A stretch of DNA of 64,000 nt, from positions 10,779 through 74,778 of the forward strand of contig CACFIK010000005.1 in assembly GCA_902566305.1 (NCBI GenBank), read 5' to 3'. Of this stretch, positions 2,057-17,318 are shown one piece after another. The notes under the pieces were generated by a model that saw nothing but the letters and a program-made list of their open reading frames with translations, had not been told where the DNA came from and did not search any database. Numbering within the stretch: the first letter of the stretch is position 1; each line of letters begins with the position of its first letter. A program made the translations under genes and the position numbers. This DNA is from an uncultured SAR86 cluster bacterium. GTDB lineage: Bacteria > Pseudomonadota > Gammaproteobacteria > Magnimaribacterales > AG-339-G14.

Positions 2057-2059
2057 TGC

Positions 2060-2866: not shown

Positions 2867-2943
2867 ATATTTCTCCTACCTACTTAATTTCCGTATTACA
2901 ATTTTACTAGTTTAAACTAATCAATAAAATATACATAAGTCCC

Positions 2944-4347
2944 ATGGCAAAAAAAGGTTACAGAGAAGAATCAGATAGCATTGGAATAGTTTACGTTCCC
3001 CGAAATGCTCTATACGGTCCACAAACACAAAGAGCCATAGACAACTTTCCTATAAGTGGTATCAAAATGGATTTTCCTTTTACCAAATCCTTTATTAGCT
3101 CTTTAGGAGTAATTAAAGATGCTGCAGCTAGAGCTAATAATAAATTGAAGCTTCTGTCCAATAAGAAGGCCAGAGCAATATCTAAGGCTTCTAAAGAGGT
3201 GTGGCGAGAAAAACATCATAAAGAATTTCCTATCGATGTATTTCAAACAGGATCTGGAACTAGTTCGAACATGAATGCAAACGAGGTTATAGCTAATTTA
3301 GCATCAGTATTCTCTGGTGAAGAGGTTAGTCCGAACGATGACGTTAACATGTCTCAAAGCAGTAATGATGTCATACCAACTGCAATAAAAATCAGTGCAC
3401 ATATGGATTTAACTAAAAAGTTATATCCCAACTTAGAAAACCTTATTAACGCAATCGATAAAAAAGCAGTTTCTTTTAGAGGAATAATAAAAACAGGAAG
3501 AACTCATCTCATGGATGCAATGCCTATAGATTTAGCTGATGAATTATCTGCGTGGTCCAGTCAATTAAAGACTTCTCTAAAAGCTCTAAAATTTATTGAA
3601 GCTAGACTTTTGGAACTTCCTCAAGGCGGAACAGCTGTTGGAACAGGAATTAATGCTCACAAAAGGTTTGCCAAAGTTTTTGCTCAAGAAATCTCCAAGT
3701 TGTCTGGGAATAAATATAGAAGTGTAGCAAGTGATAATTTCTTTCATGAGTTAAGTTCTCAAGATACAGCAGTCCAATTATCTGGCGAACTAAAAAACTT
3801 AGCTGTTGCTTTAATGAAGGTTTCAAATGACTTGCGATGGATGAATAGTGGACCTTTAGCTGGACTATCAGAGATAGAACTCCAGGCTTTGCAACCAGGA
3901 AGTAGCATTATGCCAGGCAAGGTAAATCCGGTGATTCCTGAAGCTGTAACTATGGTAGCTGCGGATGTTATAGGAAATGATGTGAGCATTACAGTTGCAG
4001 CGCAAGCAGGTAACTACCAGTTAAATGTGATGCTTCCCGTTATAGCCTATAACTTACTTAAAAGTATTAATCTCCTGTCAGGCGCTTGCGATGTTCTTGC
4101 TAACAAAGCAATTAAAACCTTCAAGGTGAATAAAAAGAATTTGGAATCGTCTTTGGCAAAAAATCCAATACTTGTAACAGCCCTCAATCCAATTATTGGT
4201 TACAAAAAAGCTGCTGCAATTGCTAAAAAAGCTTACAAAGAGAATCGACCAATCATTGATGTTGCCGCTGAAGAGACAAATCTTTCCGAGGCAAGATTAA
4301 AGAAACTATTAGATCCTGCTAAGCTTGCAAAGGGCGGAATTCAATGA
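2944..4347 (+). CDS. fumC: Class II fumarate hydratase
   Basis: Fumarate-lyase signature GSSIMPGKVNP plus the FumC-type blocks QTGSGTSSNMNANEV and SQSSNDVIPTA. 467 aa. Confidence 0.9.
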   Translation: MAKKGYREESDSIGIVYVPRNALYGPQTQRAIDNFPISGIKMDFPFTKSFISSLGVIKDAAARANNKLKLLSNKKARAISKASKEVWREKHHKEFPIDVFQTGSGTSSNMNANEVIANLASVFSGEEVSPNDDVNMSQSSNDVIPTAIKISAHMDLTKKLYPNLENLINAIDKKAVSFRGIIKTGRTHLMDAMPIDLADELSAWSSQLKTSLKALKFIEARLLELPQGGTAVGTGINAHKRFAKVFAQEISKLSGNKYRSVASDNFFHELSSQDTAVQLSGELKNLAVALMKVSNDLRWMNSGPLAGLSEIELQALQPGSSIMPGKVNPVIPEAVTMVAADVIGNDVSITVAAQAGNYQLNVMLPVIAYNLLKSINLLSGACDVLANKAIKTFKVNKKNLESSLAKNPILVTALNPIIGYKKAAAIAKKAYKENRPIIDVAAEETNLSEARLKKLLDPAKLAKGGIQ

Positions 4348-4694
4348 AAGTTGACTACCTTTTAGATTCAAATTGCGAAGCTTGTAGGGCAGATGCTCCC
4401 AAAGTTACCAAGGATGAATTAAAAGAACTTAAGCCTTTAGTACCTTCTTGGGAAATTATTGAAGTAAATCGATTGAAAAAACTGATTTGCTCTTTTGCTT
4501 TCTCTAACTATGAAGAATGCGTTAATTTTGCAAATAAAATCGCTGATCTAGCTGAAAAAGAAGATCATCACCCAGAAATTCTAATTGAATGGGGAAAGGT
4601 CACCGTGACTTGGTGGTCACATAAGATCAAAGGTTTGCACAAAAATGATTTTATAGCTGCCGCAAAGACAGATCAGATTTTTTCAGGTTCTTGA
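4344..4694 (+). CDS. phhB: Pterin-4-alpha-carbinolamine dehydratase
   Basis: 116 aa with EDHHPEI...V.V.W.H motif. ATGA overlap with the fumC stop. Confidence 0.85.
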   Translation: MKVDYLLDSNCEACRADAPKVTKDELKELKPLVPSWEIIEVNRLKKLICSFAFSNYEECVNFANKIADLAEKEDHHPEILIEWGKVTVTWWSHKIKGLHKNDFIAAAKTDQIFSGS

Positions 4695-5908
4695 ATTTGA
4701 CTTGCTAAAACGACGGCAACCAGAGCAACACAACCCATAATATTGAAAGCCACGAAGTAGGTATCTTGGAAACCTATTAAGATGCTTGTAATCAAGATTC
4801 CAATTGGTTGAAGCGGAGAAACTATAGGAGACGAAATGCCTCTAGCTTTTCCAAGATTATGCGCTCCAAAAGTTCTTAAGTAGCACGCAGTCATAAGAGG
4901 CATTGCGGCACCAAAACCCAAACCAAAGATAAACGCACTTAAAAGAAATATGTTCGGTTCATTGAAATAAGTAATTCCAAAGATTCCAAGCGCTTGGAGA
5001 AACATTGCCATCATTGAAGGATAAGCCGCCTTCATTACGTCCATGAGATATCCAAATAGAATTTTTCCCAAAACTCCCCCAAAAGCAGATAGAGCATAAG
5101 CAAAGACATATTGTTTAACCGGCAGACCTAAAAGATTCCAGGTTTCGTCTAATCCCATCTTACTTGCGTGTATAGGCAAAAAAGAAAGCACACCCATCAT
5201 AGAGAGAAATTGAAATGCAAAAGCTAAGGAAATTATCCAAAAAACTTTTTTGGACAATAGATCTTTTGCAGTCATCTCTTGAGGTAAGGATTCTTTTTCA
5301 TTTTCCTTCTTAATTCCATCTTTAGCTTGATTGACACTCTTTGGATCATCAATCACGGTAAAAAAGATAAGAGGTAAAATAATAAATAGAATTACTGAGG
5401 CAAAAATTACGTAAACATTTCTCCAGCCTACCAAGTCAAGCAGCGGATCAACAACCAAAGGAAGCACAACGCCTGAGAAAGAAATACCAACTGCAGCAAT
5501 TCCTAGAGCTCTGCCAGCATTTTTATCAAACCAATTCGAGATTAATTTAGCTACTGCTAAATTTCCCATCATGATTGACCCCAATGCCAAGACAGTAAGA
5601 TAAATTGTCAGAAGCGACCAATAAGAATTTATGAAACTTAGCGAGAAAAGTCCTATGGCATAAATGACAGCTCCAATCATCATAAAATTTTTAACTGAAT
5701 ACTTATCAAGAGCTCGACCGATAACTATTGCTAAGATTGCCACAGGCATAAAATAAAAAGCGGATACCATTCCAAGCTGACTTTCGGTCATGCCGAGCTC
5801 AGATATTAGGTAAGGCCAGATCACTGGAAAGCTATAAAAAAGGAAACCTATAACAGTAAATTCAACGGTAAGACCCGTAAACACCATTCTCCAACCAAAA
5901 AACTTCAT
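4673..5908 (-). CDS. MFS transporter
   Basis: 411 aa, about 12 hydrophobic segments, MFS loop motif GRALDKYS. 3' end overlaps phhB by 22 nt (convergent). Confidence 0.8.
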   Translation of the reverse strand: MKFFGWRMVFTGLTVEFTVIGFLFYSFPVIWPYLISELGMTESQLGMVSAFYFMPVAILAIVIGRALDKYSVKNFMMIGAVIYAIGLFSLSFINSYWSLLTIYLTVLALGSIMMGNLAVAKLISNWFDKNAGRALGIAAVGISFSGVVLPLVVDPLLDLVGWRNVYVIFASVILFIILPLIFFTVIDDPKSVNQAKDGIKKENEKESLPQEMTAKDLLSKKVFWIISLAFAFQFLSMMGVLSFLPIHASKMGLDETWNLLGLPVKQYVFAYALSAFGGVLGKILFGYLMDVMKAAYPSMMAMFLQALGIFGITYFNEPNIFLLSAFIFGLGFGAAMPLMTACYLRTFGAHNLGKARGISSPIVSPLQPIGILITSILIGFQDTYFVAFNIMGCVALVAVVLASQIQEPEKI

Positions 5909-5952
5909 TTTTCTGTATTTTTTAGAAATTTATTAAAATTCTAGCAATCCTG

Positions 5953-5958
5953 TATAAT
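5953..5958 (+). promoter_or_regulatory. Candidate -10 box (TATAAT) 6 nt upstream of the guaB ATG
   Basis: Sequence is cctgTATAATctataaATG. No purine-rich Shine-Dalgarno lies between the box and the start. Confidence 0.4.
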
Positions 5959-5964
5959 CTATAA

Positions 5965-7431
5965 ATGTTGCGGCTTAAAGAAACAGCTATAACCTTTGAC
6001 GACGTCTTATTGCTCCCTGACTATTCAGAAGTCTTGCCCAATGATGTTGATTTAACCACACGTCTGACAAAAAACCTAAGCATAAACATTCCAATAATTT
6101 CTTCTGCTATGGATACCGTCACTGAATCCAGAATGGCTATTGCTCTGGCAGAGCTCGGAGGTATTGGAATCATTCACAGGAACTTAAACATTGTAGATCA
6201 AGCTAATGAAGTTCGGGCAGTGAAAAAATTTGAGAGCGGTATTGTAAGAGATCCAACAACTATCTCATCAAGTAGTACGGTTGGTGACCTTATTCAGCTA
6301 ACTAAAGAGTTAAACATCTCTGGTATGCCTGTGGTAGACGATGATAATCTGGTTGGAATTGTGACTTCCAGGGATTTTCGTAATGAATCTAATATGACCG
6401 CCACCGTAAGTTCGATTATGACCCCGAAAGAAAAACTTATTACGGCTAAAGAGAGCGAAAGCATTGATAATATAAAATCCTTACTCTATCGAAATAGAAT
6501 AGAAAAAATATTGCTTGTTGATGACGCTTTTGGTCTGAAAGGTCTAATCACTCTGAAAGATATAAATAAATCAAAAGATTATCCATCCGCAACCAAGGAC
6601 TCAGAAGGGAGACTTCTAGTTGGTGCAGCAATAGGTAACGGCACCGATACAGAGGAGAGAACTGAAAAACTTGTTCAAGCCGGTGTCGATGTTCTCGTTG
6701 TTGATAGCGCTCATGGACACTCACAAGGCATTTTAGAGAGAGTAAAAAAAGTAAAAAAAGATTATCCAAATATAGATGTCATTGGTGGAAATGTTGCTAC
6801 TGCGGAAGGAGCTACAGCCTTGATGAAAGCAGGAGCTGATGGAGTAAAAGTTGGTATTGGGCCAGGTTCTATCTGCACTACGAGAATTGTGACAGGAGTT
6901 GGTGTTCCCCAAATAACAGCTATTGCAGATGTGGTATCAAGTATGAAGAAAAAAGGAATTCCAGTTATTGCAGATGGTGGAATTAGATTCTCTGGTGATT
7001 TTGCAAAAGCAATTGCTGCAGGAGCAGATAGTGTCATGCTCGGTAGCATCTTGGCAGGAACAGAGGAAGCTCCTGGTCAAGTGGAACTCTTTCAAGGCAG
7101 AAGCTTTAAAGCATATAGAGGCATGGGGTCTGTAGGTGCAATGTCAGGTGAATCCTCCTCAGGGGATAGATATTTTCAAGATAATCAACAAACCGACAAA
7201 CTGGTACCCGAAGGTATAGAGGGAAGAGTTCCCTATAAGGGTTGGGTAGAAACTTCTATTCATCAAATGTTGGGCGGCTTAAGACAAAGCATGGGTTACA
7301 CCGGATGCAAAGACATTGATACGATGAAAACTAAACCTAAGTTTGTTCAAATTACTACTTCTGGAATGAGCGAGAGTCACGTGCATGACGTCAGCGTCAC
7401 TAAAGAAGCGCCAAATTACCGAATTACTTAA
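5965..7431 (+). CDS. guaB: IMP dehydrogenase
   Basis: 488 aa. Catalytic loop [11 protein letters not shown] and an inserted CBS pair. Directly followed by guaA. Confidence 0.95.
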
Positions 7432-7436
7432 TTTAA

Positions 7437-8993
7437 ATGCAGAAAATTGATCAAGATAAGATAGTTATCCTTGATTTTGGTTCGCAATACACTCAGCTTA
7501 TTGCCAGAAGGATCAGAGAAATAGGAGTTTTATCCGAAATTGTCTCATGCGAAATATCCCCAAAAGAACTTTTAAAATTAAATCCAAGAGGCATTATTTT
7601 TTCTGGCGGTCCAGAATCGGTTAATTCGAAGTTTAAACCTAAATTTAATTCTAAGATTCTTGAAATAAACCGACCTATTTTAGGGATTTGCTACGGAATG
7701 CAATTATTAGCAAGCCAATATAAAGGAAAAGTAGATTTGTCGGCGAAGAGAGAATTCGGTCACTCAGAATTAGCATTTAACAAAAATATTCTTTTTAAAG
7801 GAGTAAAAGGGAAAAAAACAAAAATTGACGTATGGATGAGTCACGGCGATAAAGTTGTAAAGCTTCCGAAACAATTTAAAAGGATTGCCTCGTCGACAAA
7901 TTCTAAAATTGCCGCATTCGCTTCGAATGACAAACAACGCTTCGGTGTGCAATTTCACCCCGAGGTGTCTCACACCGATCAAGGGCAAAAAATATTAAGT
8001 AACTTCGCTTTGGATATTTGTGGTTGTAAGAAAAATTGGACTTCAAAAAATATTATTAATGATTTGGTTCAGAACATTAAAGATCAGGTTGGAAATAAAC
8101 ATGTTCTCTTAGGAATTTCGGGTGGTGTGGATTCCAGTGTTGTAGCCGCTCTCATTTCAAAAGCTATCGGTAAAAGATTGCATTGTATTTTTGTCGATAA
8201 CGGACTTTTAAGGAAAGATGAATCCATCCAAGTTAATCGTGATTTAAAAAAAGGTCTTGGCTTGAAGATTACTACTGTAAATGCCGAAGATATATTCCTG
8301 AAAAAACTTAAAGGCAGGACAGATCCTGAAGAAAAAAGGAAAATAATAGGCAGAACCTTCATAGATGTATTTTCAAAAGAGGCAAAAAAAATAAAAAATA
8401 TAGATTTTTTAGCTCAAGGAACTATCTATCCAGATTATATTGAATCAGCAGGAAAAAAGGGCGGTAAAGCGCATGTCATAAAATCGCATCATAACGTTGG
8501 AGGGTTACCTGAAAAATTAAAGTTTCCCCTTGTTGAACCGCTCAAATTTCTTTTTAAAGATGAGGTTAGAAAGATAGGAAGAAAATTAGGATTGCCAGCT
8601 TATCTTATCGAAAGGCATCCTTTTCCAGGTCCAGGGTTAGGCGTTCGATTGTTGGGTGCTATAGACAAAAGTAAGTTAGAGATATTAAGAGAAGCAGATG
8701 CCATTTTCATGGAAGAACTAATCAAGCAAAAGCTTTACAACAAAATAAGTCAAGCTTACGCAGCTTTTCTTCCAGTTAAATCAGTAGGTGTTGTTGGAGA
8801 TGCAAGAAGATATGAATACGTAATTGCCCTAAGAGCGGTTGTAACGCTTGATTTCATGACGGCTAATGTATTTCCTTTCAAACAAGAATTCCTTAATCAT
8901 GTTTCAACAAGAATAATGAATGAAATAGATAAGGTTTCTAGAGTTGTTTATGATATTTCGAGCAAACCTCCTGCAACTATTGAGTGGGAGTAA
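7437..8993 (+). CDS. guaA: GMP synthase (glutamine-hydrolysing)
   Basis: 518 aa. GATase Cys block GICYGMQLL, ATP-PPase P-loop SGGVDSS, family C-terminus PATIEWE. Confidence 0.95.
   Translation: MQKIDQDKIVILDFGSQYTQLIARRIREIGVLSEIVSCEISPKELLKLNPRGIIFSGGPESVNSKFKPKFNSKILEINRPILGICYGMQLLASQYKGKVDLSAKREFGHSELAFNKNILFKGVKGKKTKIDVWMSHGDKVVKLPKQFKRIASSTNSKIAAFASNDKQRFGVQFHPEVSHTDQGQKILSNFALDICGCKKNWTSKNIINDLVQNIKDQVGNKHVLLGISGGVDSSVVAALISKAIGKRLHCIFVDNGLLRKDESIQVNRDLKKGLGLKITTVNAEDIFLKKLKGRTDPEEKRKIIGRTFIDVFSKEAKKIKNIDFLAQGTIYPDYIESAGKKGGKAHVIKSHHNVGGLPEKLKFPLVEPLKFLFKDEVRKIGRKLGLPAYLIERHPFPGPGLGVRLLGAIDKSKLEILREADAIFMEELIKQKLYNKISQAYAAFLPVKSVGVVGDARRYEYVIALRAVVTLDFMTANVFPFKQEFLNHVSTRIMNEIDKVSRVVYDISSKPPATIEWE
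8979..8993 (+). repeat. Core copy A: ATTGAGTGGGAGTAA (guaA codons I-E-W-E-stop)
   Basis: Exact 15-mer is repeated at 9419-9433, and with 14/15 identity at 10420-10434. Confidence 0.9.
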
Positions 8994-9047
8994 TTTTTAA
9001 AATGAATATTAATTAAATCTTTGGATATTTTTTGCTAGGATGATGAG

Positions 9048-9353
9048 GTGATAAGTTTTTTTAAAAAATACAAAACTTATTTAGGTATATTTTTCTTTAT
9101 TTTTGCGGTAGTTCTTTCAAGAATAGGAAGACAACAAGATATTCCTGCACTTAACTTACCTTTGATTCTTTGTTTCACTATCATAGTTATCTCTTTTCTG
9201 TTTGCATTGATATTAATAATTTATGAAAAAGGATTTTTTAATTCAATAAGAACTCCTATATTCTGGATATACCTTATCTTAATTATTTTAGGATTTTATT
9301 TTATTGTGTTTCCGTTTTTTTCTTTAGGAATGAAATATTTAATTAATCTTTAA
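9048..9353 (+). CDS. Small hydrophobic protein (about 3 TM segments), unknown function
   Basis: 101-aa ORF with GTG start, the only sizeable ORF in cassette 1. No recognisable motifs. Confidence 0.4.
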   Translation: MISFFKKYKTYLGIFFFIFAVVLSRIGRQQDIPALNLPLILCFTIIVISFLFALILIIYEKGFFNSIRTPIFWIYLILIILGFYFIVFPFFSLGMKYLINL

Positions 9354-9354
9354 C

Positions 9355-9372
9355 ATACAAACTTCATACAAA
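9355..9372 (+). repeat. Tandem heptamers ATACAAA-CTTC-ATACAAA (site 1)
   Basis: 7-4-7 direct repeat with 11-bp phasing, starting 2 nt after the cassette-1 ORF stop. 46 nt separate it from core copy B. Confidence 0.85.
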
Positions 9373-9418
9373 GTCGAAATTAAAATCAATGGAATCAATA
9401 ATTTATAAACCTTTTACC

Positions 9419-9433
9419 ATTGAGTGGGAGTAA
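9419..9433 (+). repeat. Core copy B: ATTGAGTGGGAGTAA
   Basis: 15/15 identical to the guaA end. The in-frame context AAA CCT TTT ACC ATT GAG TGG GAG TAA (KPFTIEWE-stop) resembles guaA KPPATIEWE-stop. Confidence 0.9.
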
Positions 9434-9473
9434 AGAAATCGAACTTAACCAGAATTTTTGAATAGGAAGAGAA

Positions 9474-10331
9474 ATGACAAATGTAGAACACGTGGTTCTG
9501 AGTGACGGACGAAAACTGGCCTATGAGCAATTTGGCGCAGAGAATGGTGTGCCGGTTATCTACAACCACGGTTGGCCTTCATCCCGTTTAGAATGTCGCC
9601 ATTTAGTACCAATTGCTGAAAAAACTGGTGTTAAATTGATCTCAGTTGACCGGCCAGGGATGGGCGGGTCAGATTTCCAGCCGAATCGTGCCCTTCTGGA
9701 TTGGCCGAATGATATTTCTCAACTCGCTGATCACCTGTGCCTCGACAAATTTCATATCTTGGGTGTATCAGGTGGGGGTCCTTACGTATCAGTCTGCGCT
9801 TACAAGATTCCAGAGCGTTTGTTAGGCGCAGCGATAATTGCTGGTGTTACTCCGATGACTAACCCTCGCACAAAACACGGAATGAGGATGATGAACCGCA
9901 TTTTACTGAATGTGGGGAAACCGGCGCCCTGGTTGCTCAATTGGTTTATGAAATACATGCAAAATGTGGCCAACGACACTGAAAAGTTAAAGAGAGCGTT
10001 AAGTGATCTTCCAGAGGTAGACAAGCAGGTGATGACAGGAGATACAATCGATGAGTTAGCCGAGTCGGCGCAGGAATGTCTCCGACAAGGGACCGCAGGA
10101 GCGACGCAAGACGGTCGCATCTATGCCCTACCATGGGGGTTCGAGCTCAATCAAATCGACATACCCGTTACCGTCTGGCAAGGCTCGCTGGACGTCAATG
10201 TCCCGCTGTCCAACGGCCAGATCCTGGCAGAGTCCATTCCTAACGTATCTTCCAATTTTATAGATGGAGAAGGACATTTTTCTATACTGATTAACCATGG
10301 CGAAACGATGTTGACCGAGTTAATCGGTTGA
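9474..10331 (+). CDS. Alpha/beta-fold serine hydrolase, compositionally foreign
   Basis: 285 aa. HG oxyanion motif (YNHGWPSS), nucleophile elbow GVSGGG, C-terminal GEGHF. Hand counts: 30/60 and 38/60 G+C in lines 9481-9540 and 10081-10140, versus 12/60 in 9061-9120. Confidence 0.85.
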   Translation: MTNVEHVVLSDGRKLAYEQFGAENGVPVIYNHGWPSSRLECRHLVPIAEKTGVKLISVDRPGMGGSDFQPNRALLDWPNDISQLADHLCLDKFHILGVSGGGPYVSVCAYKIPERLLGAAIIAGVTPMTNPRTKHGMRMMNRILLNVGKPAPWLLNWFMKYMQNVANDTEKLKRALSDLPEVDKQVMTGDTIDELAESAQECLRQGTAGATQDGRIYALPWGFELNQIDIPVTVWQGSLDVNVPLSNGQILAESIPNVSSNFIDGEGHFSILINHGETMLTELIG

Positions 10332-10355
10332 CGCCACTATAATGACAAATATCAT

Positions 10356-10373
10356 ATACAAAGTTAATACAAA
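10356..10373 (+). repeat. Tandem heptamers ATACAAA-GTTA-ATACAAA (site 2)
   Basis: Same 7-4-7 layout as site 1. Again exactly 46 nt before the core (copy C). Confidence 0.85.
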
Positions 10374-10380
10374 CTTTTTT

Positions 10381-10405
10381 GAAACCCCTTTAAATAAAGG
10401 GTTTC
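10381..10405. other. Inverted repeat GAAACCC(C)TTTA-AA-TAAAGGGTTTC in the cassette-2 tail
   Basis: Imperfect 25-nt palindrome ending 14 nt before core copy C. The T-run precedes rather than follows it, so it does not look like an intrinsic terminator. Confidence 0.6.
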
Positions 10406-10419
10406 AGAGGGTATTACTC

Positions 10420-10434
10420 ATTGAGTGGGAATAA
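10420..10434 (+). repeat. Core copy C: ATTGAGTGGGAATAA
   Basis: 14/15 match to the guaA end. The single change GAG to GAA is synonymous, so it still reads I-E-W-E-stop. It is followed by AAC then the ATG of the next gene. Confidence 0.85.
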
Positions 10435-10437
10435 AAC

Positions 10438-12447
10438 ATGAAATATAGATCAGAAATTGATGGTCTAAGAGCGCTGGCAGTTTTGCCGGTAATTCTTTTT
10501 CATGCCGGCTTTGAGTGGTTTAGAGGTGGTTTTATAGGCGTGGACGTTTTCTTTGTGATTAGCGGCTATTTGATTACAACCATAATTATTTCTGAGATTG
10601 TTGAGGGTAAATTCAGTATTGTTAATTTTTATGAGCGTCGAGCCAGAAGAATACTACCCGCTTTATTTTTTGTCATGGCTATCTGCATACCCTTTGCTTG
10701 GCTGTGGCTTACACCAAATGACCTTAGAGATTTTGGACAGAGTCTTATTGCAGTATCCACATTTTCTTCCAATATTCTTTTTTGGTTAGAAAGTGGTTAT
10801 TTTGATACCGCTGCAGAACTAAAACCATTGCTTCATACTTGGAGTTTGGCTGTTGAGGAGCAGTTCTATATTCTTTTCCCTATTTTTCTAATCCTTACTT
10901 GGCGCTTGGGAGTTAAGTGGGTTTTAATTTTTCTATCATTACTATTTTTTATTAGTTTAGGAATCTCTTATTGGGGTTCTTACAACTCTCCTTCTGCTGC
11001 TTTCTTCCTACTTCCAACAAGAGGTTGGGAATTACTTGTTGGTGCTTTTGCTGCCTTTTACCTCAAGGCTAATAATCACCTGAATTCTCTTAATGTAAAT
11101 CAAACTTTTAGTTTGCTAGGTTTTGGAATGATTATTTATTCAATTATAGCGTTTGATAAAACTACTCCTTTTCCTGGCTTGTTTGCTTTAATCCCTACAT
11201 TTGGAACGGGTCTAATAATTCTTTGTGCTGTTCCAAAAACTTTTGTTCACAAACTACTAAGTCTAAAGATTATTGTTGGAATTGGATTGATTTCCTATAG
11301 CGCTTATTTGTGGCATCAGCCCTTATTGGCATTTGCGAGGCATAGATTTTTGGGTGATGTTTCAGAATTATTTTTAATTACCCTGTGTTTTATCTCATTC
11401 GCCATGGCATGGTTTAGTTGGAAATTTGTTGAGTCTCCTTTTCGAAAAAAATCAATATTCAAAAGAAAAAGTATCTTTGTTATGTCCGCGTTAATGGGTG
11501 TAATTTTTTCCGTATTAGGACTTTTTCTTCATATGAATGTTACTACCCCTTCTAAATTTGATTTCTATGGGAAAGAAATATCAATACCAGATAAGTATGG
11601 AGGAATTATTGATAACAAAAGGAAATGTTCTTTTCCTGACTTAATTTCTAAAGAAAAACCTTGCGAAATTTTTGGAGGCGGTGAATTAGGTGACTTAGTA
11701 ATCATTGGCGACTCACATGCCAGAGTCTTGTCTGAATCATTTTATTCTTCTGTCGGTTACTTTAATTCACTTATCGACTTAACAGCTTCAGGTTGTCCTT
11801 TTCTTATAGATTCAAATATTTACATTGGCAAAACTTTGAATTGCTCTAGCGACTACCAGCTTGCCAGACAAAAAATCTTGACAGAACGGCGCAATAGCAC
11901 TGTGGTTTATCAGGCCCGCTTACCATTGTATTTCTATGGTAATGGATTTGATAATGGCAATCCTGGCGGTAATGAGATAAGAGCAAAAGTAAGGGTTACT
12001 GGTAAAAAATCTTTTTCTAATGTTGAGGAAGAGCGTCGATATTTTCTCGAAAGTCTCAAAAATTCAGTGGGATTTATAGCAAAAAATAACAACATGCTTT
12101 TTATTATTTTGCCTTCTTTCAGCAATGGATGGGATCCAATAGATAGACTTTTCGCATTGGAAACACAAGGATTTTCGTTACAAGAAGCGAAGGATTACCT
12201 CGCTATTCAAAAGAAAGTTGTTGATCAACGAGTTGATCATTTAAGAGAAGAATTAATTTCGATATCTAAGAATTTTGATAATGTAATAATAGTTGACCCA
12301 AACAAATTTGTTTGCTCAATAGATTTTTGCTCCCCATTGAGTAGTGAGGATGAATTGCTTTTCACTGACGCAGATCATTTCTCTTTAAAAACTAACGATT
12401 TAATTTTCAATGAAGTACTTAAATCTATGGAATCTTTAAAAAGATAA
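10438..12447 (+). CDS. Acyltransferase-3 family membrane O-acyltransferase with C-terminal SGNH domain (OafA-like)
   Basis: 669 aa. N-terminal EIDGLRALAVLPVILFHAG block, about 10 TM segments, C-terminal SGNH block IIGDSHA. Confidence 0.85.
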   Translation: MKYRSEIDGLRALAVLPVILFHAGFEWFRGGFIGVDVFFVISGYLITTIIISEIVEGKFSIVNFYERRARRILPALFFVMAICIPFAWLWLTPNDLRDFGQSLIAVSTFSSNILFWLESGYFDTAAELKPLLHTWSLAVEEQFYILFPIFLILTWRLGVKWVLIFLSLLFFISLGISYWGSYNSPSAAFFLLPTRGWELLVGAFAAFYLKANNHLNSLNVNQTFSLLGFGMIIYSIIAFDKTTPFPGLFALIPTFGTGLIILCAVPKTFVHKLLSLKIIVGIGLISYSAYLWHQPLLAFARHRFLGDVSELFLITLCFISFAMAWFSWKFVESPFRKKSIFKRKSIFVMSALMGVIFSVLGLFLHMNVTTPSKFDFYGKEISIPDKYGGIIDNKRKCSFPDLISKEKPCEIFGGGELGDLVIIGDSHARVLSESFYSSVGYFNSLIDLTASGCPFLIDSNIYIGKTLNCSSDYQLARQKILTERRNSTVVYQARLPLYFYGNGFDNGNPGGNEIRAKVRVTGKKSFSNVEEERRYFLESLKNSVGFIAKNNNMLFIILPSFSNGWDPIDRLFALETQGFSLQEAKDYLAIQKKVVDQRVDHLREELISISKNFDNVIIVDPNKFVCSIDFCSPLSSEDELLFTDADHFSLKTNDLIFNEVLKSMESLKR

Positions 12448-12687
12448 GTTGTATTTAAAACGTTTGTGTAATTGATTCTTACTTTTGCAAACATTTTTTT
12501 TGATTTATTTCTTTTATTGTTTATTAGGCGGAGCAGTTTAAGCAATATAGATGAATATTTTTATTAATATTTATAATTTGTAAGTTTTTAGAAAATTGTT
12601 AAATCATAATTGATAAAATTATTGAAGAGACTGCATTAATAATAATCTAAAATAGACTGATTCTTTGTGTAAGGCAGGAAAATAACA

Positions 12688-13500
12688 GTGAAAAATTTTT
12701 ATCTAAAGCTTTGGAGAAGTAGATTTAATATCCCAAGACGTGCTTTTTGGAAAATTATTAGAATTTTAGTTTCAGAATTTAATTTGTACGGAATTTCAAG
12801 TGATTTCCAGAATAGTCAAATGAAAGAAATTGGGCTAATTCGCGAAGATGGCCTGGCTAAGTTGAATTATGTTTTAAAAGATGTGATGTCGAAACCATAC
12901 GATGAAAATGACGGAATGTTTTCTGAACATCTTGTTTTAATTTCATCAATTTCGGTATCTAATTTAAACATAAAGAGAGTTCTTGAGGTTGGAACACATG
13001 ATGGAAGAACTGCACTAATTCTAAGCCGATTATTCCCTGAGGCAGAAATTATTACTATCGACTTGCCGAGCGATGAAAAAAGCTTCGAAGAAACCTATAG
13101 TAGAGATAACTCAGTCAATGAGTTTACAAATAAAAGAAATAACCTAATTGCAAAAGCCGATAATATTGATTTTAAAGAAGTCAACTCTATTAGGCTATGT
13201 GAATGGGAGGAGAATTTCGATTTAATTTGGATTGATGGGGCGCATGGATATCCGGTTGTTGCTATGGATATTATCAATAGTTATAGGCTAGCAAATAAAG
13301 GAGCATTCATCCTTATTGATGATATTTGGAAGAGCGTAGATTTATCTGATGCTATGTATAAGTCTATTGGAGGAATTGAATCATTAAATATGCTTGTTAA
13401 TGCAAAACTTATTTCTAAATATTATCTTTTTCATAAGCGTCTCGGAGGTATTTTTAATTATCCTGGACAGAAGAAGTATGTTGGTTGTTTTATAAAATAA
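12688..13500 (+). CDS. Class I SAM-dependent methyltransferase
   Basis: 270 aa, GTG start. Motif I VLEVGTHDGRTAL, later IDGAH and DD blocks. Start position uncertain. Confidence 0.65.
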   Translation: MKNFYLKLWRSRFNIPRRAFWKIIRILVSEFNLYGISSDFQNSQMKEIGLIREDGLAKLNYVLKDVMSKPYDENDGMFSEHLVLISSISVSNLNIKRVLEVGTHDGRTALILSRLFPEAEIITIDLPSDEKSFEETYSRDNSVNEFTNKRNNLIAKADNIDFKEVNSIRLCEWEENFDLIWIDGAHGYPVVAMDIINSYRLANKGAFILIDDIWKSVDLSDAMYKSIGGIESLNMLVNAKLISKYYLFHKRLGGIFNYPGQKKYVGCFIK

Positions 13501-13531
13501 AAACTCAATTTAGCCCTATTAAAACTGGAAA

Positions 13532-14281
13532 GTGGAAGTAGATTTAATTTTATTTGTAGTTTTAATTTCAACTCTTTTTACAGCATTTTTATCTTCAATA
13601 TTTGGGATGCTCGGTGGTCTAATTTTAATGGGAATATTAATTAGTCTATTACCTGTTGGACCTGCTATGGTCCTTCATGGTCTTATTCAAGCAACATCAA
13701 ATGGATACAGGGCATGGATAAATAAAAAAGATATCAACTGGAAAATTATTTTAACCATCCTCATGGGAAGTATTTTTTCTTTGGTCATTTTTTATTTTAT
13801 TGCATTTGAGCCAAGTAAAATTTTAGTTCTATTTGCTTTAGGTTTTCTGCCATACCTAGCTTGGGCAGTACCAAAAGAACTTTCATTTGATATAAATAAA
13901 CCAACTACTGGAGTTTTGGCAGGAGGAGTAGTAGTGGGCAGTAATCTTTTATCTGGGACAGGTGGACCAATTTTGGATATTTTCTTTCAGAAGGTTGATA
14001 TGACAAGGCACGAGGTCGTGGCTACTAAGGCAGTAGCTCAAACATTAGGACATATCTCTAAAATACTTTTTTTTGGAATATTTGTTTCTGTAAATTTCGA
14101 AAACTGGCCAAATATTTACTTTCTTTTCATAGCAATTTTATTTTCAGTGACTGGAACTTCTTTAGGAAAGCGAGTTTTAGATATAATAGATGATAGATTT
14201 TTCTTCAGATGGACGCAGATCATTATTCTCTCTGTAGGAGCCATTTTTATTCTAAGAGCTTCATACTTATTAATTTTTTAA
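13532..14281 (+). CDS. TauE/SafE-family (sulfite exporter-like) membrane protein
   Basis: 249 aa, GTG start, about 7-8 TM segments with Gly-rich helices typical of the family. Confidence 0.6.
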   Translation: MEVDLILFVVLISTLFTAFLSSIFGMLGGLILMGILISLLPVGPAMVLHGLIQATSNGYRAWINKKDINWKIILTILMGSIFSLVIFYFIAFEPSKILVLFALGFLPYLAWAVPKELSFDINKPTTGVLAGGVVVGSNLLSGTGGPILDIFFQKVDMTRHEVVATKAVAQTLGHISKILFFGIFVSVNFENWPNIYFLFIAILFSVTGTSLGKRVLDIIDDRFFFRWTQIIILSVGAIFILRASYLLIF

Positions 14282-14335
14282 AATGGTGAATCTGAATCAA
14301 AGAATCAAAAAATCTTAATTAGTAAAAATGAAATT

Positions 14336-15412
14336 ATGAAAAATTTAAAAGATGAAATTAAGTTTCCATGCGGCCTATCTATGAAAAATAGATTTATGCT
14401 TGCTCCATTAACTAATACTCAGAGTCATGAAGATGGAGTTCTTTCAGATGATGAGTTTAATTGGTTAACTATGAGAGCGAGAGGTGGTTTTGGACTCACT
14501 ATGTCTTGTGCTTCGCATGTTCAGGCTATTGGTAAGGGTTTTCCCGGACAATTAGGAATTTTTAGCGATGAACATATAGATGGATTAAAAAAATTAACCG
14601 ATGAAATTAAATCTCACGAAAGTTTAGCCGTTGCTCAATTACACCATGCTGGAATGAGATCGCCTGAAGATATTATTAGAGAACAGCCTGTCTGTCCTTC
14701 AGATGATGAGGAGACTAACTCAAGAGCATTGACTCTTGATGAGGTCAAAAGATTAAGAGATAACTTTATTGAAGCTGGAGTAAGGGCAAAAAAGGCAGGT
14801 TATGAAGGGGCTGAAATTCACGGAGCTCACGGCTATATTTTGTGTCAATTTTTAAGTTCTGATATCAATAAGAGAGAAGACGAATATGGAGGAACTTTAG
14901 AAAACAGATCCAGAATCATTTTTGAGATAGTTGACGGCATTAGAAATGAATGCGGTTCTAAGTTTCTATTGGGAGTTAGATTATCTGCAGAAAGATTTGG
15001 AATCAAACTAGGAGAAACAAAAGAGGTTTGTAAAAAACTTATTGATACCGAAAAAATAGATTTTTTAGATATGTCACTTTGGGATTCCTTTAAAGAGCCG
15101 GTAGAGGAAGAGCACAAGGGTAAGAACCTATTGGAGCATTTTACAGAACTTGATTTTAAAGATGTTCAGTTAACGGTAGCGGGAAACATAAGGACTGGCG
15201 AGAACGTTCATGCAATACTTAATAATAAAGTAGATTTCGTAACTATTGGGAGAGCGGCTATTCTCCATCATGATTTTCCTATTAAAGTCATAGAAAACTC
15301 ATACTTTGAACCCATTGAGCTTCCAGCTCCTAGATCTCATTTAATTAAAGAGGGACTAAGCGATAAATTCATCGAATATATGGGAGCTTGGCCTGGTTTT
15401 GTGGGTGAATAA
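14336..15412 (+). CDS. NADH:flavin oxidoreductase (Old Yellow Enzyme family)
   Basis: 358 aa. APLTN block near the N-terminus and HGAHGYILCQFLS active-site block. Confidence 0.85.
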   Translation: MKNLKDEIKFPCGLSMKNRFMLAPLTNTQSHEDGVLSDDEFNWLTMRARGGFGLTMSCASHVQAIGKGFPGQLGIFSDEHIDGLKKLTDEIKSHESLAVAQLHHAGMRSPEDIIREQPVCPSDDEETNSRALTLDEVKRLRDNFIEAGVRAKKAGYEGAEIHGAHGYILCQFLSSDINKREDEYGGTLENRSRIIFEIVDGIRNECGSKFLLGVRLSAERFGIKLGETKEVCKKLIDTEKIDFLDMSLWDSFKEPVEEEHKGKNLLEHFTELDFKDVQLTVAGNIRTGENVHAILNNKVDFVTIGRAAILHHDFPIKVIENSYFEPIELPAPRSHLIKEGLSDKFIEYMGAWPGFVGE

Positions 15413-15422
15413 AGAAGTTGAA

Positions 15423-16145
15423 TTAACTTTTAAAATCTTCTGAATTTTTGAGCATGTGAGCAGGACCATGATTGATATTAATGGCGGCATTTTTACCGAA
15501 TAACATTTCTTTCTGGTAGCCAAAGTTTTTTCTATCGGTTGCTAGCGGCGCTAACTCTTCAGCTTTCTTTACGGCCAATTCTGGCAATTCTTCAAACGAG
15601 CTTGTTGCTTGAACAATCCCAGCATCAAGCGCATCAGTTCCAGTCCATCTTTTTGATAATTGAACTGTTTCATAGAAGGCATTTGCAGGAATTTTATGCT
15701 TGAATAAAGATAGCTCAGGTCTTGGAATAGATAAGCCTAGTTGCATTTCATTAGCGCATAAGAATCCTCTATCTTCTCTCATAATCCTTACATCATGGGT
15801 CAGAGCAAGCATAAATCCGGCTCCAAAAGCATGACCATTTATCGCACAAACTGTAGGTATTGGCAACGTTATAAAACGGCCCATAAGATGCATAAATTCT
15901 TTACCAAAAATATCTCTATCGCCTCCATCAGGATTACTTTTAGGATCTTGCATCCAATCAAGATCTAAACCGTTTGAAAAGAACTTAGGATTCTCAGAAG
16001 AGGTGATTAATGCTCCAGGACCTTCATCTTTTTCAATTTCATCAAGCGCTTTGGCTATTTCTCTTACAAAAGTAGTATTCCAACGATTTTCATTGGCAGC
16101 TAGATTTAAAAAATAGATTGATTCTTTTTTCTCTAGTTTTATCAC
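15423..16145 (-). CDS. Enoyl-CoA hydratase/isomerase (crotonase) family protein
   Basis: 240 aa. Crotonase oxyanion block INGHAFGAGFMLALTHDVRIM. Confidence 0.8.
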   Translation of the reverse strand: MIKLEKKESIYFLNLAANENRWNTTFVREIAKALDEIEKDEGPGALITSSENPKFFSNGLDLDWMQDPKSNPDGGDRDIFGKEFMHLMGRFITLPIPTVCAINGHAFGAGFMLALTHDVRIMREDRGFLCANEMQLGLSIPRPELSLFKHKIPANAFYETVQLSKRWTGTDALDAGIVQATSSFEELPELAVKKAEELAPLATDRKNFGYQKEMLFGKNAAININHGPAHMLKNSEDFKS

Positions 16146-16193
16146 AATATTTTTTTAATAGATTTACTTTTAAAACATCATACATAAAAAACG

Positions 16194-16211
16194 ATACAAA
16201 TTAGATACAAA
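16194..16211 (+). repeat. Tandem heptamers ATACAAA-TTAG-ATACAAA (site 3)
   Basis: Same 7-4-7 direct repeat as in the two guaA cassettes. It lies in the intergenic region 51 nt upstream of the apt ATG. Confidence 0.85.
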
Positions 16212-16262
16212 CTTTCTTTAGATGCTTTAATATCTCGTCCTAAGGAAATATAGGAGAAGGAA

Positions 16263-16805
16263 ATGAGTGATCCATTAAATTTAAAAAAACACATTAGAGA
16301 GGTCAAAGATTTTCCAATTAAAGGGATTAATTTTAGAGACATAACAAGCCTCATAGAAAATCCTGAAGCTTTTCAAACTACCTGCAAGGAATTAATAGAA
16401 GTTTCGAAAAATTTTAATGCTTCGGTCATCGCAAGCATTGAGAGCAGAGGTTTTATTTTTGCAGGCTCAATTTCTTTTGAGCTCGGACTTCCTTTTGTTC
16501 TAGCAAGAAAACCAGGAAAACTTCCTAACGAAACATTTAAAAAAGACTTTGATTTGGAATACGGGAGCACTTCTATTGAGATCCAAAAAAATACAACCTT
16601 TAAGAGCTCTGATAGGGTCGTCATTGTTGATGATTTGGTTGCAACTGGTGGAACAGCAATTGCTTGCGCAGAACTTTTGACTGAAAACTTTAAAATTAAG
16701 AAGTCAAATATTCTTATATTAGGCGTTATAGATTTGCCTAAATTAGGCGGCAGCGATCTAATTGTTAAAGAGGGATACAATATTCAGACTCTTGTTTCCT
16801 ACTAG
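16263..16805 (+). CDS. apt: Adenine phosphoribosyltransferase
   Basis: 180 aa. PRPP-binding motif VVIVDDLVATGGT. SD taggagaagg upstream. Confidence 0.9.
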   Translation: MSDPLNLKKHIREVKDFPIKGINFRDITSLIENPEAFQTTCKELIEVSKNFNASVIASIESRGFIFAGSISFELGLPFVLARKPGKLPNETFKKDFDLEYGSTSIEIQKNTTFKSSDRVVIVDDLVATGGTAIACAELLTENFKIKKSNILILGVIDLPKLGGSDLIVKEGYNIQTLVSY

Positions 16806-16859
16806 TTGGGATAAGAAAAAATACCTGCTAATCTTAATTTATTAAAACAGGAGAGAGAA

Positions 16860-17318
16860 ATGAAAATCTTTTTATCAATACTATTAGTTTTTTCAATCCA
16901 TATTTTTTCAGACGATCATAAAAAGCTTGATCCAATTATATTCATGCTAGATTTGTCAGTTAACGATGGAAAAATAAAGAAAGCAGAAAAATTTACATAC
17001 GATATTACAAAAAATGTCATGAAAATGGAGCCCGATACGGTAATTTATCAATACTATTTTGACTCAGAAGAAAAAGTCTTCCTATATGAAGTTTATAAAA
17101 GTAATGAAGCTGCCATTGAGCATGTCAAAAATTTTCGTGGTAGCAAATGGGAAAGTAAATTTGGAGAGTTATTTTCTATAGAAAATTTTGCTGTTCTAGG
17201 AGAAGCATCTAAAGACTTGAAGAAGTCTCTAGAGGGTTACACAACCGATTTTAGGTATTTAAAAGGAGGATTTCATAAGCCTGCGAAAAAGTTATCTAAA
17301 GAAATTATGAAACTTTGA
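16860..17318 (+). CDS. Secreted ABM-like (antibiotic biosynthesis monooxygenase fold) protein, tentative
   Basis: 152 aa with N-terminal signal-like segment MKIFLSILLVFSIHIFS. The LYEVYKSNEAAIEHV segment resembles ABM domains. Strong SD aggagagag. Confidence 0.45.
   Translation: MKIFLSILLVFSIHIFSDDHKKLDPIIFMLDLSVNDGKIKKAEKFTYDITKNVMKMEPDTVIYQYYFDSEEKVFLYEVYKSNEAAIEHVKNFRGSKWESKFGELFSIENFAVLGEASKDLKKSLEGYTTDFRYLKGGFHKPAKKLSKEIMKL

What the first reader, a model, noticed from the sequence alone, without database searches (positions are those of the whole stretch)
16194..16269. Third copy of the tandem ATACAAA motif upstream of apt: possible outer boundary of an older insertion, or a shared operator
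ATACAAA-TTAG-ATACAAA (16194-16211) repeats the 7-4-7 layout of the two guaA cassettes. It lies in the intergenic region between the divergent crotonase gene and apt.

No full guaA-like core follows. The closest resemblance is TGAGTG (16264-16269, inside AATGAGTGAT at the apt start), 4 nt further away than in the cassettes. That match is weak and may be chance.

If the motif marks cassette tails, the whole 10435-16262 block would be a third, older unit. That block holds the OafA-like acyltransferase, methyltransferase, TauE, OYE reductase and crotonase genes. guaA and apt would then be ancestral neighbours.

Alternatively the heptamer pair is an operator for a direct-repeat-binding regulator, placed 51-101 nt upstream of three start codons.
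Basis: partly seen in the sequence, partly recalled or inferred. Interest (0 to 1): 0.6.

Follow-up and report, generated by a model that had tools for sequence, protein, structure and literature searches.

The report
Fossil cassette tail upstream of apt
The third ATACAAA repeat pair is the left half of a worn-out attachment site from the mobile gene cassettes that pile up behind guaA, so it marks the old outer edge of that cassette stack next to apt, and part of it now appears to serve as the apt promoter.

Summary
ATACAAA-N4-ATACAAA occurs exactly three times in the 1.06 Mb genome (about 0.085 expected). All three lie on one strand within 7 kb downstream of guaA.

The third copy is not an isolated motif. 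A profile built only from cassette tails of other families finds two significant sites in this genome. One is the cassette-2 tail. The other is window 16189-16235 (E 4e-8), which matches the left half of the tail and is 40/42 identical to one foreign tail. The right half and the GAGTGGGA crossover core are missing.

TGAGTG at 16264-16269 is simply the first apt codons (M-S-D), not a core remnant.

In two other families guaA is followed directly by apt, or cassette arrays end with tail core plus 4 nt plus apt. The operator reading fails: there is no regulon, and heptamer 1 drifts at the neutral rate.

Heptamer 2 and a TAATAT box are almost invariant, with promoter-like spacing, which suggests reuse as the apt promoter (inferred). 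The 10435-16262 block is composite, not a single unit.

A rare tyrosine integrase flanked by ATACAAA pairs on both arms exists in a sister genus. Earlier notes of this scan had covered the two intact cassettes, but not this copy.

The parts
8979..8993 (+). guaA terminal codons plus stop (ATTGAGTGGGAGTAA). This is the crossover core and attachment site of the array.
   Evidence: It contains the same 8-bp GAGTGGGA target that is reported for GIsul2 (PMC9376610).
9355..9433 (+). Tail of cassette 1 (class B): heptamer pair at 9355-9372, 46 nt, core at 9419-9433.
10356..10434 (+). Tail of cassette 2 (class A): heptamer pair at 10356-10373, 46 nt, core at 10420-10434.
   Evidence: It matches the foreign-tail HMM over its full length (E 2.7e-11).
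10438..14281 (+). Variable island genes AT3/SGNH, methyltransferase and TauE, with no recognisable tail.
   Evidence: Pfam. AT3 and the methyltransferase were found only in this genome and TauE in 4 genomes. No tail relic lies before OYE.
14320..14335 (+). Possible decayed core (TAGTAAAAATGA) plus AATT, directly before the OYE ATG. The signal is weak.
   Evidence: G007 has the real guaA core at this position, 4 nt before the OYE ATG. In G000 the resemblance ranks only in the top 7% of gene-upstream regions.
14336..16145 (.). OYE reductase (+, 14336-15412) and crotonase ECH (-, 15423-16145). These are old island genes, nearly fixed in the genus, proximal to the fossil tail.
16189..16235 (+). 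Fossil half-tail 'D', which matches positions 8-54 of the 90-position tail profile.
   Evidence: nhmmer E 4e-8; the next best hit in the genome has E 0.38. It is 40/42 identical to the G235 tail.
16194..16200 (+). Heptamer 1 (ATACAAA), no longer constrained.
   Evidence: Diversity (pi) is 0.23 and 0/7 columns are invariant among 14 genus sequences, against 0.21-0.28 at 4-fold sites. It is absent in L055.
16205..16211 (+). Heptamer 2 (ATACAAA), invariant. It overlaps a -35-like GATACA at 16204-16209.
   Evidence: pi 0, 7/7 columns invariant. It reads AGACAAA, also conserved, in the second lineage.
16228..16233 (+). TAATAT, a -10-like box 18 nt after GATACA.
   Evidence: The ATGCTTTAATATC block has pi 0.03, with 11/13 columns invariant. 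It alternates between TAATAT and TATTAT in the second lineage. The simple promoter scan did not call it.
16236..16262 (+). apt 5' leader with Shine-Dalgarno AGGAG (16252-16256). It occupies the place of the tail's right half and core.
   Evidence: It has no similarity to the tail's right half or to the core. Its resemblance to the core is matched or exceeded by 26% of gene-upstream regions.
16263..16805 (+). apt (adenine phosphoribosyltransferase), the distal flank of the array.
   Evidence: Pfam. It lies directly after guaA or after the last tail core in families f3 and f4. It is accessory in this family: 11/15 genomes of the genus have it, 0/34 of the other genera.

Best explanation
The third heptamer pair is the orphaned left half (about 47 nt, window 16189-16235) of a class-A cassette tail.

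An intact tail is an attR-type junction. It has two ATACAAA repeats that act as arm-type sites for a tyrosine integrase, about 46 nt of spacer including an AAGGGTTTCAG box, and a copy of the guaA end (GAGTGGGA), where strand exchange takes place. Cassettes and larger integrase-less elements insert at the guaA stop codon and push older insertions away from guaA. In other families of the order the gene on the far side of the stack is apt.

The copy upstream of apt is therefore the outermost, oldest junction in this genome. Its right half and core have been lost or overwritten by the apt leader, so it can no longer recombine.

Shown here:
- homology of the site to cassette tails;
- loss of the core;
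- guaA-apt adjacency in relatives;
- relaxed constraint on heptamer 1;
- strong constraint on heptamer 2 and on TTTAATAT.

Inferred:
- the conserved part now works as the apt promoter (-35-like GATACA, 18 nt, -10 TAATAT, leader of about 22 nt with AGGAG);
- the heptamers bind the N-terminal domain of the rare integrase family found in G047 and G034.
For: 1. Specificity. There are 3 exact pairs in the genome against 0.085 expected. In 50 family genomes there are 25 pairs against 5 reversed-pattern controls. Of these, 23 lie in guaA-linked islands.

2. Homology. An HMM built from 10 tails of other genomes finds only the cassette-2 tail (E 2.7e-11) and this site (E 4e-8, profile positions 8-54) in the whole genome; the next hit has E 0.38. 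The site is 40/42 identical to the G235 tail (family f2) and identical to the G205 tail through GCTTTAATATCT.

3. Intact tails keep the core exactly 45-46 nt after the pair. Here nothing core-like is present.

4. Synteny. G184 and G033 have guaA, then a 4- or 11-nt spacer, then intact apt. G155 and G150 keep 23- and 38-aa apt remnants at that place. G150 and G196 show tail core plus AATT or GGTT plus the apt start. In further species apt lies 2-5 kb downstream of guaA.

5. Constraint. Heptamer 1 has pi 0.23, against 0.21-0.28 at 4-fold sites. Heptamer 2 has pi 0. ATGCTTTAATATC has pi 0.03. In all ten foreign tails both heptamers are exact.

6. Integrase. In G047, of a sister genus, the order is guaA core, 40 nt, ATACAAA pair, a 438-aa tyrosine recombinase, cargo, ATACAAA pair, 46 nt, core. 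A homologue (29% identity, E 1e-50) sits right after guaA in G034, with different arm repeats (TGACACA).
Against: - The same ECH plus half-tail block occurs in a second lineage (family f2, genus g10). There it is cut off at the same point (after TAATATC) and followed by a different gene. So the truncation may predate the link with apt, or the half-tail may be a module in its own right.
- AATT, the spacer that follows the guaA core before apt in family f3, is found here before OYE and not before apt. A simple one-step history does not explain this.
- The consensus promoter scan did not call the proposed promoter, because GATACA matches TTGACA at only 3 of 6 positions.
- No integrase of this family is present in any of the 15 genomes of the genus.
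- apt is 70-80% identical between families whose GuaA proteins are only 55-60% identical. apt may therefore be exchanged horizontally rather than being strictly ancestral.
Confidence: 0.7

Rival explanations
1. The left half of the tail is a portable promoter module in its own right. On this view the copy before apt is an intact working module, not a degraded attachment site. Tails would then be this module fused to a core.
For: - The ECH plus half-tail block ends at the same base (after TAATATC) in two lineages that have different downstream genes.
- Head-type copies place the pair directly upstream of a TTGACA/-10-like promoter before the first gene of an element.
- Heptamer 2 and the -10-like box are conserved.
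Against: - Heptamer 1 is exact in all intact tails but drifts neutrally here. The full pair therefore matters only where a core is present.
- The 47 nt are nested within a longer conserved tail family found in three families.
- The promoter scan does not support promoters in tails generally.
Confidence: 0.15
2. The pair is an operator for a regulator that binds direct repeats (PhoB/OmpR-like 7-4-7 layout) and controls apt and the genes after the two cassettes.
For: The layout of two 7-nt direct repeats 11 nt apart matches winged-helix response-regulator boxes (general knowledge). All three copies lie 52-119 nt upstream of a start codon.
Against: - There are only three sites in the genome, all in the array.
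- Family-wide, 23 of 25 copies are guaA-linked.
- Two copies travel with mobile cassettes found in other genera.
- Heptamer 1 is not conserved among orthologous apt upstream regions, and one relative (L055) has a single unit.
Confidence: 0.05
3. The site is still recombination-competent: the arm pair works with a cryptic core at the apt start (TGAGTG or the GGAGAAGGAA stretch), which would explain the insertions seen between ECH and apt in some relatives.
For: G005 (826 nt), G007 (1066 nt) and G014 (apt deleted) differ from G000 in exactly this intergenic region.
Against: - The breakpoints are not at a fixed distance from the pair: right after heptamer 2 in G005, the whole spacer in G007, and from the Shine-Dalgarno site to the apt stop in G014.
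- None of these insertions carries a tail or a core.
- TGAGTG is apt coding sequence.
- The resemblance of the apt leader to the core is ordinary for this genome (26% of upstream regions score as high).
Confidence: 0.05
4. The pair arose by chance through local slippage: an 11-nt tandem duplication of GATACAAAyTw, unrelated to the cassettes.
For: The unit number varies: one unit in L055, two in most genomes, and a third heptamer-like copy 12 nt upstream in G013, G002 and G004.
Against: Homology to tails extends 24 nt beyond the pair and several nt upstream of it. The chance of an exact pair near the array is of the order of 1e-3 or less.
Confidence: 0.03

Closest known systems
GIsul2 and the CR2-sul2 unit (genomic island at the 3' end of guaA; PMC9376610)
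   Same: The integration target is the same: the 8-bp GAGTGGGA at the guaA stop. Tandem att sites occur. An integrase-less unit is mobilised in trans by the island's tyrosine integrase.
   Different: Here the units are mostly single-gene cassettes of 0.4-6 kb in streamlined marine genomes. The integrase is almost always absent (4/266 genomes). The candidate integrase gave no tblastn match to any plasmid record. The copy studied here lacks the core altogether.
Lambda-type (heterobivalent) integrase attP with arm-type sites
   Same: There are direct-repeat sites distinct from the core, at fixed distances on both sides of it (46 nt and 40 nt), in an element that encodes a tyrosine recombinase (G047). 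The repeat sequence changes together with the integrase (ATACAAA against TGACACA).
   Different: Binding has not been shown, and no arm-binding domain was recognised by Pfam. The copy at 16194 is an arm with no core, so it is a fossil and not an att site.
CIMEs and tandem accretion of integrative elements, with decayed att sites left between units
   Same: Elements without an integrase are stacked at one attachment site. The older junctions are degraded and persist as partial att copies (general knowledge).
   Different: Here the surviving half is under purifying selection in part, which suggests a second use.
Integron cassette arrays (attI, attC, Pc)
   Same: Promoterless or near-promoterless single genes are stacked in one orientation at a fixed site, with the newest next to the site. 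Each cassette ends in a recombination element.
   Different: There is no IntI. The recombination element is arm repeats plus a copy of a housekeeping gene's end, not a folded attC (no Rfam match). The array sits inside a purine-metabolism gene neighbourhood.
Pho-box-type 7-4-7 direct-repeat operators
   Same: Two 7-nt direct repeats are separated by 4 nt and overlap the -35 region of a promoter.
   Different: There is no regulon, and the upstream repeat is not conserved.

Membership tests
Class-A cassette tail of the guaA array | Two ATACAAA heptamers 4 nt apart | tested here: met
   Exact copy at 16194-16211.
Class-A cassette tail of the guaA array | Conserved flanks (A-run plus TG/CG before the pair, CTTTyTTTAGATGCyTTTAwATC after it) | tested here: met
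   nhmmer E 4e-8 over profile positions 8-54. 40/42 identity to the G235 tail.
Class-A cassette tail of the guaA array | AAGGGTTTCAG box and right half of the tail | tested here: not met
   The alignment stops at profile position 54 of 90. The downstream 27 nt are the apt leader.
Class-A cassette tail of the guaA array | Copy of the guaA end (GAGTGGGA) 45-46 nt after the pair | tested here: not met
   All intact tails have it. Here it is absent: TGAGTG is apt codons, and the apt leader resembles the core no more than 26% of upstream regions do.
Arm-type sites of a heterobivalent tyrosine integrase | A tyrosine recombinase encoded in an element bounded by the same repeats | tested here: met
   G047 has a 438-aa PF00589 protein between core-40nt-pair and pair-46nt-core. 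It is not in this genome or genus.
Arm-type sites of a heterobivalent tyrosine integrase | Protein binding to the repeats through an N-terminal arm-binding domain | not testable with these tools
   Pfam recognises no domain in the N-terminus. EMSA or footprinting is needed.
Operator of a direct-repeat-binding regulator | Sites at several unlinked promoters (a regulon) | tested here: not met
   3 sites in the genome, all in the array. 23 of 25 sites in 50 family genomes are guaA-linked.
Operator of a direct-repeat-binding regulator | Both half-sites conserved among orthologous promoters | tested here: not met
   Heptamer 1 has pi 0.23, equal to neutral sites, and is missing in L055.
Sigma-70-type promoter (for apt) | -35 and -10 hexamers 16-18 nt apart, close to consensus | tested here: inconclusive
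   The site has GATACA (3/6), 18 nt, TAATAT (4/6). The consensus scan did not call it.
Sigma-70-type promoter (for apt) | Purifying selection on the two boxes relative to neutral sites | tested here: met
   18 of 20 columns are invariant, against 24-45% invariant 4-fold sites. The second lineage alternates TAATAT and TATTAT.
Sigma-70-type promoter (for apt) | A transcription start about 7 nt after the -10 box | not testable with these tools
GIsul2-family guaA islands | Integration at GAGTGGGA at the guaA 3' end | tested here: met
   Core repeats at 8979, 9419 and 10420. Target as given in PMC9376610.
GIsul2-family guaA islands | Integrase homologous to the GIsul2 Int | tested here: inconclusive
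   tblastn of the G047 integrase against 72,556 plasmid records gave no match at 1e-5. No direct comparison with the GIsul2 Int was made.

The most novel reading that the evidence does not exclude
Cassette tails may serve two purposes. The integrase arm repeats would overlap an outward-facing promoter, so each insertion at the guaA stop brings a promoter for the gene it displaces. The copy before apt would then show the promoter half outliving the recombination half. If so, this guaA-to-apt array would be an integron-like gene-capture system with built-in expression signals. It would run on a rarely present heterobivalent integrase, in one of the most abundant streamlined ocean bacteria.
Probability: 0.3. 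Interest if true: 0.7.

Novelty: new variant of a known kind. Interest (0 to 1): 0.55.

Why it matters
The result fixes the extent of the guaA-linked cassette array in this genome. The array runs from the guaA stop (8993) to the apt start (16263), not only across the two obvious cassettes. It also shows that apt, or its remnants, is the far flank of such arrays in at least three families.

The site is a dated fossil. It can be used to ask how fast attachment sites decay once the integrase is absent, and which parts are kept for another use.

Together with the integrase-bearing element in G047, it turns the open question from the earlier notes ("no recombinase in sight") into a testable system: one integrase, a 7-4-7 arm pair, and an 8-bp core shared with the clinically known GIsul2 islands.

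Tried and rejected
1. TGAGTG (16264-16269) as a core relic: rejected. It is the first apt codons (M-S-D) and is present in apt genes that have a separate true core upstream.

2. A core-like GGAGTTGGGATATAA found 49 nt after the pair in G014: rejected. It is the sequence that follows the apt stop in G000 (TAGTTGGGATAAG...), so G014 is a precise apt deletion.

3. The apt Shine-Dalgarno stretch GGAGAAGGAA as a mutated core (with an 8-nt ATGA...ATGA deletion): not supportable. 26% of gene-upstream regions resemble the core as well.

4. A tail relic between TauE and OYE: none found (local alignment p about 0.2; no nhmmer hit).

5. The consensus promoter/terminator scan gave fewer hits than shuffles and did not call the proposed apt promoter.

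6. A scan of viral contigs for pair plus core gave 0 hits.

7. Rfam gave no match in 8900-17000.

8. Literature searches found no description of this array in SAR86-like bacteria.

10. My early reading that guaA and apt are never adjacent (same family only) was overturned by order-level searches.

Full report
**Observation**

The sequence ATACAAATTAGATACAAA lies at 16194-16211 on the + strand. It sits in the 117-nt spacer between the start of the minus-strand crotonase gene (ECH, 15423-16145) and the apt ATG at 16263. The exact 7-4-7 pattern is found three times in the window (9355, 10356, 16194), always on the + strand. The same three are the only copies in the whole 1.06 Mb assembly, where base composition predicts 0.085.

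**Distribution of the motif**

In 50 genomes of the family the exact pattern occurs 25 times, against 5 for the reversed control pattern. I fetched the places and found that 23 of the 25 lie in the region downstream of guaA. The other two are one orthologous site elsewhere in a sister genus. The guaA-linked copies occur in three contexts:

- Tails: pair, then 45-46 nt, then a copy of the guaA end.
- Heads: guaA core, then 40 nt, then pair, then a TTGACA-type promoter and the first gene of an element.
- The copy upstream of apt. Its spacer is always TTAG. It is an orthologous site within the genus. It is exact in G000, G010, G012, G013, G002, G006 and three metagenome contigs, and mutated in heptamer 1 in G008, G015, G009, G014, G004 and G005.

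This distribution removes the idea of a widespread operator.

**What the third copy is**

Tails from other families of the order (G235, G205, G210, G228, G231, G028, G102, G105, and contigs L102 and L126) read as follows: AAAAATTG, ATACAAA, 4 nt, ATACAAA, CTTTTTTTAGATGCyTTTAwATC, AAGGGTTTCAGrGCATCGTTTTGC, TGAGTGGGAATAA. The apt-upstream site reads GATACAAATTAGATACAAACTTTCTTTAGATGCTTTAATATC. This is 40 of 42 identical to the G235 tail.

I built a profile HMM from ten such foreign tails, none from this genome, and searched the whole genome with all filters off. Only two significant hits came back:

- the cassette-2 tail (E 2.7e-11, profile positions 7-89);
- window 16189-16235 (E 4e-8, profile positions 8-54 of 90).

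The next hit has E 0.38. The third copy is therefore the left half of a cassette tail. The right half (the AAGGGTTTCAG box) and the core are missing. In their place is the 27-nt apt leader with its AGGAG ribosome-binding site.

**No core relic**

- TGAGTG is the apt start (ATG AGT GAT). The same codons open apt in genomes where a true core lies separately upstream, for example GAGTGGGAATGA-AATT-ATGAGTGAT in G184. Within the genus the Ser codon varies (AGT, AGC, TCA).
- The purine-rich leader resembles the core no better than 26% of gene-upstream regions in this genome.
- A core-like string after the pair in G014 turned out to be the sequence that follows the apt stop. G014 is therefore a clean apt deletion.

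**Synteny**

- apt is absent from all 34 genomes of the three other genera and from 4 of 15 in this genus.
- OYE-ECH are present in all 11 same-genus genomes whose guaA-downstream region was recovered. Genus-wide, ECH is found in 11 of the 15 other genomes.
- In G007 the OYE ATG follows the guaA core by 4 nt.

Order-level searches changed this picture:

- In G184 (family f3) and G033 (family f4) an intact apt starts 4 and 11 nt after the guaA stop.
- G155 and G150 keep 23- and 38-residue apt remnants at that position.
- In G150 and G196 a cassette tail core is followed by AATT or GGTT and the apt start.
- In several other species apt lies 2-5 kb downstream of guaA.

So arrays grow between guaA and apt, and apt is the far flank.

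The block 10435-16262 is nevertheless composite. AT3 and the methyltransferase are unique to this genome, TauE is in four genomes, and OYE-ECH are nearly fixed. The OYE start looks like an older junction: there is a real core at that position in G007, but only a weak resemblance in G000, in the top 7% of upstream regions.

**Selection**

I compared 14 orthologous spacers of the genus with 4-fold degenerate sites of the flanking genes.

| Region | Diversity (pi) | Invariant columns |
|---|---|---|
| 4-fold sites, ECH | 0.21 | 45% |
| 4-fold sites, apt | 0.28 | 24% |
| Heptamer 1 | 0.23 | 0 of 7 |
| Heptamer 2 | 0 | 7 of 7 |
| ATGCTTTAATATC | 0.03 | 11 of 13 |

One relative (L055) has only one repeat unit. 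In all ten foreign intact tails both heptamers are exact. The pair as such is thus no longer maintained here. What is maintained has promoter geometry: GATACA (16204-16209), 18 nt, TAATAT (16228-16233), then about 22 nt of leader with AGGAG.

A second lineage (family f2, genus g10, and about 20 metagenome contigs) carries the same ECH plus half-tail block in front of a different 127-residue gene. In it the second unit is always AGACAAA (GAGACA, 4/6 to TTGACA). The box alternates between TAATAT and TATTAT, and the first unit is variable. This pattern fits a promoter better than a recombinase site.

The promoter is an inference.

**The enzyme**

Most good genomes of the order have only two tyrosine recombinases, of XerC/XerD size. 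This genome shows one.

In G047, of a sister genus, I found the following order: guaA core, 40 nt, ATACAAACTTCATACAAA, a 438-residue PF00589 protein, cargo genes, ATACAAACTTCATACAAA, 46 nt, core. A homologue (29% identity over the full length, E 1e-50) sits directly after guaA in G034. There the repeats are TGACACA.

Homologues occur in only 4 of 266 genomes and in none of this genus. No plasmid record matched.

The 8-bp core GAGTGGGA is the published target of GIsul2, whose integrase also moves an integrase-less unit in trans (PMC9376610). This supports reading the heptamers as arm-type sites, and it explains why a half-tail without a core is inert.

**Open points**

- The half-tail ends at the same base in two lineages with different downstream genes. 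Either the block ECH plus half-tail moved as a unit after truncation, or only the promoter-relevant part is kept in each lineage.
- The AATT spacer that follows the guaA core before apt in family f3 is found here before OYE, not before apt.
- apt is more similar between families (70-80%) than GuaA (55-60%), so it may be exchanged along with island DNA.

None of these affects the main conclusion. The third pair is a fossil cassette tail at the outer edge of the guaA-to-apt array.

**Verdict**

Noticed in passing
L222 (G047:C12:10000-25000); integrase at G047:C12:19229-20542, minus strand: A 5.5-kb element right after guaA in a sister genus carries a 438-aa tyrosine recombinase. It has ATACAAA pairs on both arms (core-40nt-pair and pair-46nt-core). 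It is a candidate for the enzyme that earlier notes could not find. Homologues occur in only 4 of 266 genomes of the order.
   Followed up: partly
L225 (G057:C5), about 2984-3117 in the reverse-complemented locus: A cargo-less unit of about 119 nt sits directly after guaA: core, 40 nt, one ATACAAA pair, 46 nt, core. It looks like an integrated minimal attachment site.
   Followed up: no
L184, L185 and L186 (G150, G155, G184), at about position 2001-2140 of each oriented locus: Directly after guaA plus AATT, G184 has an intact apt. G155 has a 23-aa apt remnant, and G150 a 38-aa remnant (first 21 residues fused to the last 17).
   Followed up: partly
window 9474-10331; L227 (G061): The GC-rich alpha/beta-hydrolase cassette is 100% identical in protein sequence in a genome of another genus (G061), with the same tail. 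This indicates very recent transfer between genera.
   Followed up: no
L031 (G010) 334-6299: A type I restriction-modification operon (hsdR, hsdS, hsdM) lies between a head (core-40nt-pair) and a tail (pair-46nt-core) with no integrase. It is a 6-kb element that could be mobilised in trans, at the same site as the small cassettes.
   Followed up: partly
L021, L023, L198, and L057/L097 in /scratch copies: Other lineages use different 7-nt direct repeats next to the guaA core: TGACACA (G034), TTGACAAA (G031), TTGTAAA (G196), and TTACAAA with a 57-nt distance to the core. This suggests that arm repeats co-vary with integrase variants.
   Followed up: no
L102 (metagenome contig VMHT01170070.1): GuaA is 96% identical to this genome's, but the ECH next to its array is only 76% identical and of the type seen in another genus. 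Island genes are exchanged independently of the flanking core gene.
   Followed up: no
window 10427-10440 and equivalent junctions in relatives: The gene after each core starts 1-11 nt after the core's stop codon. The GGGA of the core therefore sits at Shine-Dalgarno distance (7-8 nt) from the ATG, and the guaA end may double as a ribosome-binding site for whatever is inserted.
   Followed up: no
window 16803-16830; G014 copy in L038: G014 lacks apt through a clean deletion from the apt ribosome-binding site to its stop codon, and has replaced the genes that follow. G005 and G007 carry 0.8-1.1 kb insertions (an SDR-like gene and a methyltransferase gene) between ECH and apt. This spacer is a second hot spot of change, without site-specific junctions.
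   Followed up: partly
window 16179-16187: ATCATACAT (ACTATACA in other genera) is conserved upstream of ECH across the whole family, whatever gene follows. Its reverse complement, TATGAT or TATAGT, looks like the ECH -10 box.
   Followed up: no
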